Below, in pieces: positions 10,693 through 52,975 of a DNA stretch of 64,000 bases. The stretch covers positions 144,026,001 through 144,090,000 of the forward strand of contig OZ024743.1 in NCBI GenBank assembly GCA_964016885.1, given 5' to 3'. Each line of letters begins with the position of its first letter. The stretch's first letter is position 1. The notes beneath the pieces are model-generated. The model searched no databases and was not told the origin of the DNA. It worked only from the letters and a program-made list of their open reading frames with translations. This DNA is from Eledone cirrhosa. Its lineage: Eukaryota. The translations under genes and the position numbers were made by a program.

Positions 10693-10929
10693 AGTAATAA
10701 TAATAAATTTGAAGACTAAAATCCAAAGAGGGCTCGATAAGGATAAATATATATCAAATATATAAGAACCGTAGAGCAAATATTTATTAAAATAACAGAT
10801 TAAAGTTTAAGCAAAGAATCGCTGCTTTCACCCTTAACGGGATCTTCTGAAACTACTTTCAGAAGATCCCGTTAAGGGTGAAAGCAGCGATTCTTTGCTT
10901 AAACTTTAATCTGTTATTTTAATAAATAT
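10693..10929 (-). mobile_element. Fold-back element, family H1 (CAGAAGATCCC..GGGTGAAAG), inserted in a TA tract
   Basis: Palindrome 10780-10929 with 4-nt loop, plus a tail at 10693-10779. Near-identical single-arm copies at 21869-22028 (-) and 48911-49061 (+); fragments at 5672-5717 and 6005-6073. Confidence 0.75.
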
Positions 10930-11713
10930 ATATATAAATATATATATATAAATATATATATATATATATATATATATATATATATATATATATATAAATA
11001 TATATATATATAAATATATATATATATATATACATACAAATATAAATATATATGTACATATATATATATATATATACATACAAATATAAATATATATGTA
11101 CACATATATATATATATATATAAATATATTGGTAAACGGAATAGAAAATGCTGACAAATTGTTCACAGTTGAAAAATGGTTTAATTAGGAATAAAGGAGT
11201 ATTAGTGATTGTATGGGTTAGTATTCAGTTGTGGTTTTAAGTTTTTAAGTTTTTACCGGTTGCGCATTTCTAAATGCTTTTCAAAAATAATTTTGAGATA
11301 GAGTGTCCGTGCTGTTTGCTCTGATCTGATTAGTTTTGGGAATTCTACCTGTTTTTATGTTAAAAAAGTGGCTCCAGCGTTATTTTTGTGTTGCAAAAAT
11401 GCTTGTGGTCAAAACAATTTTGATTGGTCGGTAGAGGTCATGTGAATGTAAAAAGTTGATTTTGCGTCAAGACTGTTTTTATGTTAAAAAAGTGGCTCCA
11501 GCAAAAATTCTTGGTCAAAACAATTTTGATTGGTCGGTAGAGGTCATGTGGATAAAAAATTGGTTTTGCGCCAAGATTGAGAAATGACTCTTTCACAACA
11601 AATATGTGTGTATGTGTGTGTGTGTGTGTGTGTGTATGTGTGTGCGTGTGTGTGTGTGTAGTAGTAGTAGTACGGTGTTCGATGCTGCGACAATGGCCAG
11701 CAGCGATGTGTGT

Positions 11714-12280
11714 CAAATGGCTATTAAGATAAGTGTGTGTGTGTGTGTGTGTGTGTGTGTGTGTGTGTGTGTGTGTGTGTGTGTGTGTGTGTGTGTGTGT
11801 GTGTGTGTGAAGCAGAGTCATTCGAAGGTCAAAAGATATTTTTCAGCTTTTGTCTTATACGGAGAAGTGCGCGTGTGTGTGTATAAGTCTCTTTGTATGT
11901 TGATGTACGCGTGTGTATGTGTTTGTGTATATGTGTGTGTGTGTGTGTGGGTGGACCAGTATTTTTTTCCCCCTGGTAAAATGGTGTACATTATTCGATT
12001 TTTTCAGTAAAATCGGTTCTCTTAATAGAACATCAAAAATCTTAACAATAAAAGGTGTGAAATGATATTCACTATATATATATACACACATACATATATC
12101 CACTACATATATATATATATATATACATATATACATACATATATATGCACACATAAAAGCTGAAAAATATCTTTTGACCTTCGAATGACTCTGCTACACA
12201 CACACACACACACACACACACACACACACACACACACACACACACACACACACACACACACTTATCTTAATAGCCATTTG
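11714..12280. repeat. Inverted repeat with ~130-bp arms (each containing GT/CA microsatellite) around a ~300-bp spacer
   Basis: 11714-11851 is the reverse complement of 12155-12280 apart from microsatellite length. Confidence 0.75.
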
Positions 12281-12319
12281 AATTCCTGATGATGATATAT
12301 ATATATATACAAATATATA

Positions 12320-12595
12320 TCATCATCATCATCATCATCACCGTTTTACGTCCGTTCTTCCACGCTAGCATGGGTTAGACGGGTTGTCCTGTTGTGGGCA
12401 GTGTCTGGTCGGCTGACCATGCCTTGCTCATACAGGAACTGATCTGGCTTGATTTCTACAGCTGGATGCCCTTCCTAACACCAACCTCATTTACAGTGAG
12501 TGCTGGGTGCTTTTTCGTGGCGCCTACACGTCCACTTTACAGTGTGGGCTGGGTGCTTTTTTGCCGTGGCACCTCCACGACCACCTTGCGGTGGG
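12320..12595 (-). mobile_element. 3' half of SINE family B with (TGA)n tail
   Basis: Reverse complement matches 40105-40325. Confidence 0.7.
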
Positions 12596-12604
12596 GGGGG
12601 GGGG

Positions 12605-50063: not shown

Positions 50064-50087
50064 ATATATATATATATATATTATATC

Positions 50088-50495
50088 ATATAAGATCAAA
50101 AGATGGTTAAAGGAGTTCCATGTATTTTATTATGCGCATTTCAAAAACAAACATCATCATGCAATAATATTTGTGTTTTCATCAGATAAAACAGGAGAAC
50201 ATGATATGAAGGCTAAAAAACACTTGTGGATAGTGCAGTTTTAAATCAACTGCACTATCCACAAGTGTTTTTTAGCCTTCATATCATGTTCTCCTGTTTT
50301 ATCTGATGAAAACACAAATATTATTGCATGATGATATTTGTTTTTGAAATGCGCATAATAAAATACATGGAACTCCTTTAACCATCTTTTGATCTTATAT
50401 TATGTATACTCCAGTCCTACAAACTGTAGAGTGCTTCTTATCTGCATTGCTTTATTGTACTACAATAAAACTCACCTCCTACATTATATATATTA
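50088..50495 (+). mobile_element. Fold-back hammerhead element, family H5 (153-bp arms, 7-nt loop, tail)
   Basis: 50088-50240 versus 50248-50400 with one mismatch seen; ACTC..GAGTGC tail motif at 50408-50434. Confidence 0.8.
50295..50365 (+). ncRNA. Type I hammerhead ribozyme (mirror copy on minus strand at 50123-50193)
   Basis: TGTTTTAT-CTGATGA-15-bp stem II-GAA-ATGCGCAT-A-ATAAAATA. Confidence 0.82.
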
Positions 50496-52577
50496 TATCT
50501 ATAGTTTAAGCCAAAATTTGAGGACACATGTCCAGGAACCAATGGGAACTAGATACACACACACACACACTGTATTATTTTACACCCAGGTTTGTTGATA
50601 GTGGCAGTTGTCAGTCAGTCAGATTTAATTATTGTTCTCAATGGATATAGATGACAATGAGGCCTGGTTTTTTTCACTCAACTGTTTCAAGTCATTGATT
50701 ATAGCTCCCTGTTACACCATCACCACCATCCCTACCATTACTTCTGGCTGAACAACCACCATTACCATCACCACTACCTCCACTAATGGCATCACCACGG
50801 TCCAATCAGCAACTTTTGTGTATTTTCAATGTATGATTGCAAAGCTAGTTGAATCACAGTATTTTTTACATTGGAGGAGGCTACTCTAATAATATATATT
50901 ATCAATCTGCTGTGGTAAAGTGTTGGAAAATAGGGGGAAATAAAAGGAAGGAGATTAAAAAAGTAAGTAAAATTTAAAAACTTTACTTTCTCTTTTCCCC
51001 TCTCCACTAATATTTCAAGTGTTTTTATTCTTTCAATATGGTTTTGGCTCTGAATCTAATAGAGTTTTATATCGCAGTTTTAATTAAACTGGGGTCTCCA
51101 TTTTCTTTGTATTAAATTAAACTGCATGACAAAATATGTTGTTCAAGTACATACCATTTGCATATCAAGAATGTAGTTTTCCCTTTTCATACATTATCAA
51201 GCATGCACACACACACACACACACACACATACGCACACGCACACGTGCACGCACACGTGCATGCACACAAACACACACACACAAACACACACACACAAAC
51301 ACACACACACACAAACATACACACAGACACACACACACACACATTCACTAGCAAAAATATAAAATAAAGTAAAATAGATGCTTGGAAGGTGGTAATTCTG
51401 CTAGTTTTATATAAGAACATTTGTTATTTTATGTTTAATTATGACAAAGTTAGTTACTTTACTAAATCTCTTCAAATTTTCTTATTACTTTCAAAAGTAT
51501 TTGAAAATCATAGGTAGTGTTTTTCTTTCAAAAGGATTAAAGAATTACCAGAATTTCACATCACACTGATGAACCCCGGTTAAAAATAAAATACATATTT
51601 GTGATTAGAATTTTATGATTTTTATCATCAAGACTAAGAAGAGTTTACTTCTTAACATCCTATAATGATTTAGTAGAAAATATATAGAAACAGCTTTGTT
51701 AATTCAAATGTTTATAGTATCTTTCCTTGTGAGCAGATCTGTGTGAAAATTTGCAGTAAACTATATATAGACTATAATTTTTAATGTTGTGTAGTAATTG
51801 TGCTGTTTATTTTTACTATTCACGAATGTGGTTTCACATTCAGAGATAATAAACTAAACCAATTCTTCGGTTGAATTTTATTTTGAATTATTTTTAGTAC
51901 AAGATAACGAAATTCCCTCCCTATCATGAAACTTAAATGAATGGTGGGCCAATCAGAATGAAACAAATTGATGTTATTCCAGGAATATAGCACAAATAAA
52001 TCCCAAAACTCAGTCCTTAGCAAGTGGGCAGTATTAATAATAATAAATAGATAAATATCAATAGACAAAGATTCAACATTTAAAGAGGAAGATGTTGCTG
52101 TTAGAAACATGTAATGCATATAGATAATGATTGTTGGGTAAAGATGTGTCATGAGTTCCAAGTAGAAGGAAGCTGTAGAAGAGGAAAGCTAAGCAAGGCT
52201 TGAGCAGAAGTGGTGAAAGCTGATCTGAGACAGAGATAAAAGACTGCACAAGTGGCAGAACCTGTCCCAATACCTATACAAACATGAAGGAATGGATGTA
52301 AAAAATGACAATGATAATGCTATGAATGAGCTTGTGTGACATTAATGTTTTTCTCAAAAGCATAAGTGGTGTAGTTCATCATCATCATCATCATCATCAC
52401 CGTTTTACATAAGTTTTGTTTTTCTGTTTATGTCATGCATTTGTGTTGTTGGTTATAGGTTTCAAACAGGCTAATCATTATTTCACAGCATTTCCAATTC
52501 TGGCAGTAACAAAAGGTGTTTGTGCACTCAGCATTTAAAAGCCTGAATCTCATATGATTAGCTGTCTCTTGTGACAG

Positions 52578-52633
52578 TTTCTGGAATTTTGTTTCAAATT
52601 CTAATAGTTGAGTGTTGGAACCTCCTGTCCAGA
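52578..52633 (+). CDS. Candidate 56-nt internal exon (xSGILFQILIVECWNLLSR), or 26-nt micro-exon from 52608
   Basis: Acceptor CTCTTGTGACAG (alternative TTCTAATAG) and consensus donor GTAAGT; one open frame; no homology recognised. Confidence 0.22.
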
Positions 52634-52742
52634 GTAAGTTTCATCTTATAATTGAAAGCAGATCGCTGTCGCTGCTCATTAGATTTGGCTGTACATACAG
52701 AATAAACAATGATTAGTACAAGAATAGAGTGATCTATATTTT

Positions 52743-52975
52743 ATGACTGTGAAGCTATACCAGTGGCTTGAGGCCAGGTGTTTCATGTTTAAGAACGCTT
52801 ATTATTCTGCAAATGCTCTTAAACATGAAATGCCTGGCTCTCGAGTTACTGGTGTAGCTTCACAGCTATAATAAACTATAATAAAATATATCATGGCTCA
52901 TCAGAATCTCATACTACAGTTCCCGAGTGATGAAACCCAAGGAATGAAAAATTCAGTTTATTTATTCAAAACAAT
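52743..52975 (+). mobile_element. Decayed fold-back element centred on TTTC..GAAA, plus tail
   Basis: Arms about 52743-52794 and 52816-52870; a related single arm at about 33605-33652. Confidence 0.55.

What the first reader, a model, noticed from the sequence alone, without database searches (positions are those of the whole stretch)
10693..52975. Many unrelated short 'inverted arm + arm + tail' elements in microsatellites share one architecture
Seen: about ten fold-back inserts (10693, 20623, 20992, 21653, 23201, 27070, 33670, 49600, 49869, 50088, 52743) from several unrelated sequence families. All are under ~410 bp, non-coding and abut TA/TC repeats. Each has two inverted arms, of which only one continues into a ~40-100-nt tail. 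Several carry complete HHRs; others carry only the GAAA half. Established: Penelope-like elements have HHR-containing pLTRs, form inverted 5' pLTRs lacking the 3' tail, and some clades prefer microsatellites. Inference: these are an abundant, probably unannotated class of minimal PLE-derived hairpin elements that would be mistaken for MITEs.
Basis: partly seen in the sequence, partly recalled or inferred. Interest (0 to 1): 0.8.

Follow-up and report, generated by a model that had tools for sequence, protein, structure and literature searches.

The report
Penelope insertion stubs share start motif
These short hairpin-shaped inserts in TA repeats are real and are likely dead-end leftovers of Penelope-like jumping genes, a published pattern, but most of their tails share a small motif that occurs twice in intact relatives and likely marks the two places where copying starts.

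Summary
Ten of the 11 sites are true fold-backs (23201 has only an 18-bp inverted part); 19 of 22 ends abut TA/TC runs (background 3% a side). Complete hammerheads lie in 3 of 11. The layout (inverted tail-less copy plus tailed copy, head to head) is the published insertion pattern of Penelope-like elements (PLEs), and this scan reported it before in shark-type genomes. In reads of two families the arm/tail boundary is fixed, while the central junction varies and many copies are not hairpins, so the hairpins are the symmetric subset of ordinary insertions, not a class.

Not found in my literature searches: unrelated families share a tail motif, RCTC-N(12-38)-GAGY-RCT, 2-10 nt past the arm end. 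In ORF-bearing Hydra-clade PLEs fetched here it stands twice before the ATG (23 of 28 families, relaxed pattern), and 13 of 16 copy ends fall just before motif 1 (tail-less) or motif 2 (tailed). Likely mechanism: two reverse transcriptases, placed by the two motifs, copy from both nicked (TA)n strands and their cDNAs join by microhomology; the inserts keep only motif 1 and are predicted to be dead ends. No ORF-linked copy of these families could be sought (no genome held).

The parts
10693..10929 (-). Family A insert: tail 10693-10779, tailed arm 10780-10852, 4-nt centre, tail-less arm 10857-10929; hammerhead fold with U4 changed to A (core at 10849, -); tail motif GCTC-N38-GAGC-CCT
   Evidence: arms 100% identical
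20623..20959 (+). Perfect 124-bp arms, complete minimal type I hammerhead on each arm (20724 -, 20769 +), tail 20871-20959 with motif at 20876
20992..21119 (-). Short insert; tail 20992-21057 with motif at 21052; tail-less piece begins within a 4-nt microhomology (21080-21083) that holds the cleavage site predicted from the family copy at 48370
21653..21854 (+). 71-bp arms (93%), degenerate hammerhead (CTGATGA and helix I, helix II nearly absent), 40-nt tail without the motif
23201..23482 (+). Asymmetric insert, relative of 20623: long inverted tail-less piece (23202-about 23367) with complete hammerhead at 23310 (-), short tailed piece from 23368, motif at 23393
27070..27319 (-). Older relative of 20992: 64-bp arms (86%), GAAA half, tail with TCTC...GAGTGCT 7 nt past the arm end
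33667..33866 (+). Family D insert (51-bp arms, 84%), motif at 33796
49601..49791 (-). Family D insert (54-bp arms, 94%); motif with one change (AAGTACT)
49871..50062 (+). Family D insert (54-bp arms, 96%); motif at 49991; tail-less end fixed at 49985 in reads
50082..50484 (+). 159-bp arms (98%), complete hammerheads at 50185 (-) and 50303 (+), 3-nt microhomology at the centre, motif at 50408 close to the second motif of L002 (by eye)
52735..52975 (+). 60-bp arms (87%), GAAA half, degenerate motif, no flanking microsatellite; tail end approximate
21869..22028 (-). Family A tailed copy without an inverted arm, 100% identical to 10693 over 160 nt
48904..49051 (+). Family A tailed copy without an inverted arm
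5997..6075 (-). Family A tail-less arm abutting (TA)n
48362..48436 (+). Solo tail-less copy of the 20992 family with a complete hammerhead, (TA)n on both sides
37955..38100 (.).
33600..33650 (+). Tail-less arm of the 52743 family abutting (TA)n
26152..26235 (+). Further copy of the 52743 family with a short ACTC...GAGT tail
59435..59865 (-). Decayed PLE reverse transcriptase fragment of Hydra type (DKT motif); not linked to any short insert
   Evidence: clade features from PMC8557442 section 11

Best explanation
The inserts are likely dead-end integration products of (TA)n-targeting Penelope-like retroelements of Hydra type or a close clade, each likely made of two separately primed short cDNAs joined head to head. 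Shown: outer ends are fixed and abut (TA)n, central junctions vary and carry short microhomologies, tails carry one paired RCTC...GAGY motif just past the tail-less end, and intact Hydra elements carry two such motifs with copy ends just before each. Inferred: a PLE protein dimer (dimer, two-strand nicking and two internal start sites are published for a Poseidon element, PMC11167929) binds the two motifs in the RNA between hammerhead and start codon, nicks both strands of a TA run, and starts one cDNA just upstream of motif 1 (tail-less arm) and one just upstream of motif 2 (tailed arm). Both run toward the RNA 5' end, which lies at or up to about 60 nt before the hammerhead, stop there or earlier, and anneal by microhomology. 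Equal lengths give a hairpin; unequal lengths give the asymmetric forms. Motif 2 is never copied, so an insert is predicted to be unable to seed a new tailed insert.
For: (reads on 49872-50550): loose ends into (AT)n at 49985 in 3978 and 3782 reads of two RAD runs and 248 contigs; at 50408 (33 contigs) and at the tail end (50484/50493); the 15 joints shown of 70 join the inverted arm at 49928-49937 or 50242-50250 to many places (49979-50020; 50341-50453, several inside the tail), often with 1-4 letters of AT between. Motif: paired strict form in 15 of 23 Hydra 3'-end families (4 end tail-less in TA, 4 have neither; 0.24% of shuffles); two copies before the ATG in 15 of 28 families strict and 23 of 28 relaxed, spaced 55-72 nt, none with two in 5600 shuffles; 13 of 16 rule-selected copy ends lie 2-15 nt before motif 1 (6) or 0-8 nt before motif 2 (7), none inside the tail. 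The outer pair covaries: G-C 38 and T-A 3 of 48 Hydra motifs, A-T in 6 of the 7 named tails that match the relaxed pattern. Published Hydra consensi end the same way (File S7 of PMC8557442). L059 has a tailed inverted piece joined head to head to an ORF-bearing copy. Five family A arms start within 14 nt of each other at hammerhead helix I.
Against: No copy of any of these families joined to a PLE ORF was found: no genome is held, the families share no DNA similarity with the 78 Hydra loci and six short family words are absent from the published Naiad/Chlamys/Hydra consensi. The window motif is mostly ACTC/GAGT-(G/A)CT, the Hydra one GCTC/GAGC-ACT, so the clade is not proven. The motif was defined on the window's tails, so its window enrichment (9 hits against 1.35) is circular; 21653 lacks it and 52743 has a weak form. 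Tails are 40-100 nt, longer than the 30-40 nt published and the 55-72 nt Hydra spacing. 3 of 16 ends and 11 low-identity places did not fit or were set aside; many Hydra loci come from related host metagenomes. The 98-nt PAc RNA in the supplement of PMC11167929 lacks this motif (by eye). Two read ends (49932, 50348) sit at AATT and likely reflect the RAD enzyme, not biology.
Confidence: 0.7

Rival explanations
1. Some families are true non-autonomous PLE derivatives: short ORF-less master RNAs (monomer about 160-270 nt, perhaps tandem, retrozyme-like) that carry both motifs and are copied in trans. The inserts form by the same two-primer route, but the source is a short master rather than the 5' end of an ORF-bearing element.
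For: 5' ends cluster: 9 of the 15 joints shown start at 50250 at an AT run, and family A arms start within 14 nt; very high copy number (24151 of 12.5 million and 24925 of 12.8 million RAD reads lie on 679 bp); only one decayed PLE ORF remnant in 64 kb; non-autonomous PLEs and PLE-derived retrozymes are published (PMC8557442; 10.64898/2026.07.22.740005).
Against: Clustered 5' ends are also expected from run-off at the transcript start of an intact element; none of the 11 is a head-to-tail tandem; no insert carries a second motif.
Confidence: 0.2
2. Snap-back: one cDNA folds back on itself (for example at hammerhead helix II) and is extended on itself, giving the inverted arm.
For: Centres lie in or near the hammerhead; self-priming was proposed for inverted PLE junctions (PMC3846280).
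Against: Snap-back of the tailed cDNA makes the tailed copy the longer one and needs an overlap; reads and 23201, 37955 and L059 show the tailed piece cut short, even inside the tail, with no overlap. It also does not explain the fixed tail-less end just before motif 1.
Confidence: 0.06
3. MITEs: the arms are terminal inverted repeats of DNA transposons with a TA target.
For: Short, non-coding, high copy, inverted arms, TA flanks; Merlin-like and other transposase remnants lie in the window.
Against: One arm is internal, 40-100 nt from the end; centres vary; single-armed copies exist; hammerheads and a PLE tail motif are present; no element matched the transposon region 16300-19800.
Confidence: 0.03
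4. Assembly or sequencing fold-back artefacts.
For: Two hairpins have 100% identical arms; no read or contig spans a whole element.
Against: Eight of the ten hairpins have diverged arms (84-98%); opposite-strand joints and fixed ends occur in raw reads of two other samples.
Confidence: 0.01

Closest known systems
Insertion units of EN+ Penelope-like elements: pLTR, adjacent inverted 5'-truncated copy, one-sided tail (Craig et al. 2021, PMC8557442; Arkhipova et al. 2013, PMC3846280)
   Same: Head-to-head inverted copy, tail on one side only, microsatellite bias, microhomology junctions, type I hammerhead in the pLTR.
   Different: Both copies are cut to under about 200 nt and carry no ORF; tails 40-100 nt instead of 30-40; a shared tail motif is not mentioned in the passages read.
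Hydra clade PLEs (PMC8557442)
   Same: (TA)n targets, hammerheads with extra letters around helix II, tail motif of the same form and position; a decayed Hydra-type RT lies in the window.
   Different: Most window motifs have an A-T outer pair and GCT/ACT instead of G-C and ACT; no ORF link shown; the motif was not checked in Neptune or Nematis.
PAc (Poseidon) in vitro mechanism (Frangieh et al. 2024, PMC11167929)
   Same: Two internal RT start sites with the tail between them, both strands nicked and extended, AT-rich targets, predicted dimer, RNA needed 3' of the start site.
   Different: That paper leaves the binding motif unmapped (within the first 172 nt of the ORF); here a duplicated motif sits just 3' of each start, upstream of the ATG.
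Minimal PLE hammerheads (Cervera and De la Pena 2014, PMC4209133) and non-LTR retrozymes (10.64898/2026.07.22.740005)
   Same: Minimal type I hammerheads with palindromic helix III; opposite-strand pairs 100-700 bp apart were already noted and read as truncated PLEs.
   Different: Retrozymes are head-to-tail tandems; these inserts are head-to-head.

Membership tests
EN+ PLE insertion unit | Type I hammerhead in the pLTR, pointing toward the 3' end | tested here: met
   Complete in 3 of 11 sites and in a family member of a fourth; full fold with one core change in a fifth; partial in six
EN+ PLE insertion unit | Inverted 5'-truncated copy adjacent at the 5' end | tested here: met
   11 of 11 sites; 10 as hairpins; variable joints in reads
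EN+ PLE insertion unit | Tail on one side only, with fixed boundaries | tested here: met
   Fixed tail-less ends at 49985 and 50408 and tail end at 50484/50493; tails longer than published
EN+ PLE insertion unit | Family linked to an RT + GIY-YIG ORF | not testable with these tools
   No genome held; no link in the window or to 78 loci of other organisms
Hydra clade | (TA)n insertion bias | tested here: met
   19 of 22 ends; loose ends into (AT)n in reads
Hydra clade | RT with DKT and RWK motifs, EN with CxCX5C linker and no CCHH | not testable with these tools
   The inserts have no ORF; only the unlinked fragment 59435-59865 shows DKT
Hydra clade | Tail motif as found here in Hydra loci (not a published criterion) | tested here: inconclusive
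   7 of 11 tails match the relaxed pattern, 3 more by eye with one change or a longer loop, 1 not; outer pair differs; other clades not tested
MITE | Inverted repeats at both termini | tested here: not met
   One arm ends 40-100 nt inside the element
MITE | Target-site duplication | tested here: inconclusive
   Not discernible inside TA runs
MITE | Ends shared with a DNA transposon | tested here: not met
   No match to the transposase regions of this window; genome-wide not testable
Non-LTR retrozyme | Head-to-tail tandem units each with a type I hammerhead | tested here: not met
   None of the 11; the separate unit at 15118-16202 comes closer
Non-autonomous PLE family | ORF-less master of defined length that seeds copies | tested here: inconclusive
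   Clustered 5' ends but no master with two motifs seen

The most novel reading that the evidence does not exclude
The PLE 'tail' is set by a duplicated RNA signal: two copies of a paired RCTC...GAGY-RCT motif between hammerhead and start codon each place one reverse transcriptase of a dimer a few bases upstream, so one RNA end region yields a tail-less and a tailed cDNA. Run-off from the 5' pLTR of ordinary transcripts then sprays tens of thousands of ORF-less head-to-head stubs into TA repeats, and the hairpins in this genome are the direct record of that two-primer step.
Probability: 0.55. Interest if true: 0.7.

Novelty: new member of a known kind. Interest (0 to 1): 0.45.

Why it matters
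The architecture is known, so no new class is claimed. What matters is the side result: how PLEs make their one-sided tail and inverted copies is named as open in PMC8557442, and PMC11167929 mapped two start sites but not the RNA signal. A duplicated motif whose two copies sit just 3' of the two kinds of end makes that directly testable by moving or unpairing one motif, gives a simple sequence rule for annotating PLE ends and for telling these stubs from MITEs, and predicts which genomic copies can still act as templates.

Tried and rejected
No whole genome is held, so copy counts and ORF links could not be computed. Rfam gave only low-complexity miRNA matches and one histone stem-loop in the rows shown. 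The repeat finder was swamped by (TA)n. Pfam did not recognise the RT fragment; the homologue search did (2 of 184 candidates). Two scans of viral contigs found no PLE relative. No RNA holder listed among 12 runs: no evidence on expression either way. Six of the listed runs held under a tenth of the words; one (X4) was laid, 39 contigs. Summed contig depth (0.4-4 million against 10.4 in the flank) is no copy number; 10^4-10^5 copies is my rough inference. The idea that helix II fixes the fold-back point in family D was dropped: centres differ between its three copies and reads join elsewhere. The hammerhead reading of family D stays unproven: no CTGANGA half was seen and its GAAA can sit in another hairpin. 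Searching the Craig supplement for motif words gave scattered hits and no clear Naiad end motif in the first 7 places of each of three words. A look-up of earlier findings by place and by sequence found nothing. A motif hit at 7670 has no element around it and is taken as chance.
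Full report
Setting. The window is 35% G+C and full of TA/CA microsatellites, with RT remnants of LINE type and a Merlin-like transposase fragment. It looks like a cephalopod genome to me; that is recalled and comes from no call. No whole genome is held.

Observation. After masking microsatellites, self-alignment shows hairpins at 10 of the 11 named sites. 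Arms are 26-159 bp, 84-100% identical, with 0-34 nt between them; 23201 has only an 18-bp inverted part. In all 11 one arm continues into a tail of about 40-100 nt. 19 of 22 outer ends have a TA/TC run within 10 nt, against 3.1% of other positions a side; 52743 has none and 27070 one. The sites form 6-7 families. A hammerhead descriptor finds 8 motifs against 0-1 in each of 15 shuffles (6 against 0-1 in 30 shuffles with the stricter form). Complete ones lie in 20623, 50088 (both arms) and 23201; family A (10693) has the whole fold with A at core position 4; the 20992 family has one in a solo copy at 48370; the rest show halves, read by eye. All point outward from the centre. Monomer folding was no better than shuffles in 5 of 6 regions; such motifs are thought to act as dimers and cleave poorly (PMC4209133, parts 1-2 of 4 read).

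Family members that are not hairpins. The same families occur as single tailed copies (21869, 48904), single tail-less arms (5997, 33600, 48362) and asymmetric joins (23201, 37955).

Reads. I laid 4 of the 12 listed runs on 49872-50550. 24151 of 12.5 million and 24925 of 12.8 million RAD reads lie on these 679 bp at 82% likeness or more, so both families are very abundant. The tail-less end is fixed: 3978 and 3782 reads and 248 contigs leave at 49985 into (AT)n, 33 contigs at 50408; the tail of the 50088 family ends at 50484/50493 in (AT)n. The centre is not fixed: the 15 joints shown (of 70) link the inverted arm at 49928-49937 or 50242-50250 to 49979, 49982, 49991, 50020, 50341, 50345, 50347, 50392, 50396, 50445, 50446, 50452 and 50453, several inside the tail, often with A, AT, ATA or ATAT between. 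Nine of the 15 start at 50250, so the inverted piece often ends at one place, an AT run. The mass read ends at 49932 and 50348 lie at AATT and likely mark the RAD enzyme site. No read or contig spans a whole element; diverged arms and opposite-strand joints in other samples argue against artefact.

The tail motif. By eye, unrelated tails share RCTC-N(12-38)-GAGY-RCT, starting 2-10 nt past the tail-less end. A strict pattern gives 9 window hits (1.35 in shuffles), 7 in named tails (circular, since the pattern came from them; the hit listed for 27070 used an ACTC in the arm, the true one is TCTC). A relaxed pattern matches 7 of 11 tails (1.2% of shuffled tails); 10693 (38-nt loop, CCT), 49600 (one change) and 52743 (weak) match by eye; 21653 does not. 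As an independent test I took the decayed RT fragment at 59435-59865 (-), found intact relatives, which carry the DKT and CxCX5C marks given for the Hydra clade (PMC8557442 section 11), and fetched 78 loci. After the ORF, 29 of 71 stretches had hammerhead plus motif, 6 ended tail-less in TA, 7 had neither, 18 had no hammerhead and 11 were too short; by family, 15 of 23 had the motif, 4 ended in TA, 4 had neither, against 0.24% of shuffles and 2 of 23 on the reverse strand. Upstream of the start codon (54 starts, 28 families) the motif stands twice, 55-72 nt apart, in 15 families by the strict pattern and 23 by the relaxed one; none of 5600 shuffles had two. Comparing copies with such references gave 93 places: 54 ran through motif 2 (these include the references), 12 hit a contig end, 11 were set aside for low identity or short length, and 16 were ends; 6 lay 2-15 nt before motif 1, 7 lay 0-8 nt before motif 2, 3 lay further upstream, none inside the tail (first pass). 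The outer pair covaries (G-C 38, T-A 3, other 7 of 48 Hydra motifs; A-T in 6 of 7 matching named tails). Published Hydra consensi fit: by eye two of six end in a tail with the exact motif, two with a near form, and two end tail-less at TA (File S7). L059 shows a short tailed inverted piece joined head to head to an ORF-bearing copy beside (TA)n. Many of these loci come from related host metagenomes, so families are not fully independent.

Mechanism. Published: EN+ PLE insertions often carry an inverted 5'-truncated copy and a one-sided 30-40-bp tail, and Hydra, Naiad and Neptune favour microsatellites (PMC8557442; passages, sections 11 and 15, supplement parts 1, 2, 52, 53 of 59). A Poseidon protein nicks and extends both strands of AT-rich DNA, starts at two internal RNA sites with the tail between them, needs RNA 3' of the start and is predicted to be a dimer (PMC11167929; parts 1-2 of 4, passages, text of two supplement PDFs; figures and the sequence file not seen). 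Inferred here: the two motifs place the two enzymes; each cDNA runs toward the RNA 5' end and the two anneal by microhomology (AAC at 50088, GTTC at 20992, AT in reads). Both motifs occur together only at the pLTR-ORF junction, so a transcript that starts in the 5' pLTR would give short ORF-less products with clustered 5' ends, as seen at 50250 and in five family A arms that start within 14 nt. In 20992 the tail-less piece starts within a 4-nt window holding the predicted cleavage site, a single case that would fit a cleaved template. Motif 2 lies 3' of the second start and is not copied, so the inserts are predicted to be dead ends. Snap-back self-priming (proposed in PMC3846280, passages) does not fit tailed pieces cut inside the tail. 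Short ORF-less masters remain possible (0.2); the data cannot tell them from the 5' end of intact elements.

Against my reading. No family was tied to an ORF. The window motif differs from the Hydra one in its outer pair, tails are longer, one site lacks the motif, the PAc RNA shown lacks it (by eye), and Neptune and Nematis were not tested.

Novelty. The architecture is in print (above; opposite-strand hammerhead pairs in PMC4209133; PLE-derived retrozymes in 10.64898/2026.07.22.740005, parts 1-3 of 5 read, supplements closed), and this scan's earlier notes on shark-type genomes say the same (unchecked). A 2026 Octopus vulgaris repeat annotation counts PLE families but does not describe such stubs in the parts read (PMC13282606, parts 1-2 of 3; its library not seen). 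I found no description of the duplicated motif in nine searches, which miss most subscription journals and Repbase reports. Verdict: real, PLE-derived, new members of a known kind; interest 0.45, carried by the twin-motif rule.

Noticed in passing
window 15118-16317: About 478-bp unit in partial tandem (15118-15758 vs 15596-16202, 90%) with an inverted end piece (16118-16317) and a hammerhead at 15470 (-), second copy with one helix III change; retrozyme- or PLE-like, no tail motif, next to a Merlin-like transposase.
   Followed up: partly
window 38518-38800: Complete hammerhead with a long helix II at 38674 (-), reading toward a (TG)n/(TA) run; likely another tail-less PLE end.
   Followed up: partly
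window 16312-17430: Merlin/ISXO2-like transposase fragments on - (Pfam PF12762, PF12760 weak) followed by imperfect hairpins at 17081-17244 and 17279-17429, and a histone 3' stem-loop match at 17250-17295 (-, 37 bits, cut-off 34) with no histone gene seen.
   Followed up: no
window 18018-19715: Broken transposase-like ORFs (hAT-like by recall; no Pfam hit for the piece tested).
   Followed up: no
reads behind window 50493: 1229 and 1576 RAD reads continue past the tail into (AT)7 and one shared sequence (agreement 0.85) absent from the window; most tail reads also carry a 7-nt insertion after 50438. A highly amplified composite or one over-amplified locus; unexplained.
   Followed up: partly
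window 10590-10660 and 25141-25180: Short related pieces beside (TA)n in opposite orientation with a GAGTA-like word; possibly ends of another PLE family.
   Followed up: no
window 5667-5996: Half of a family A tail followed by a duplicated 70-nt stretch and (TA)n, just left of a family A tail-less arm; possibly one rearranged insertion.
   Followed up: no
L001, L005, L006, L007, L010 downstream of the hammerhead: A further small (A/G)CTC...GAGTAG hairpin lies between hammerhead and motif 1 in one group of Hydra elements.
   Followed up: no
window 12622-13701, 34100-37088, 61538-63947: Several decayed LINE copies with RT and PHD-like domains; 35545-37012 and 62498-63947 are 67% alike.
   Followed up: no
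window 40654-42800: Degenerate CAC/TAC-rich minisatellite array of about 2.1 kb.
   Followed up: no
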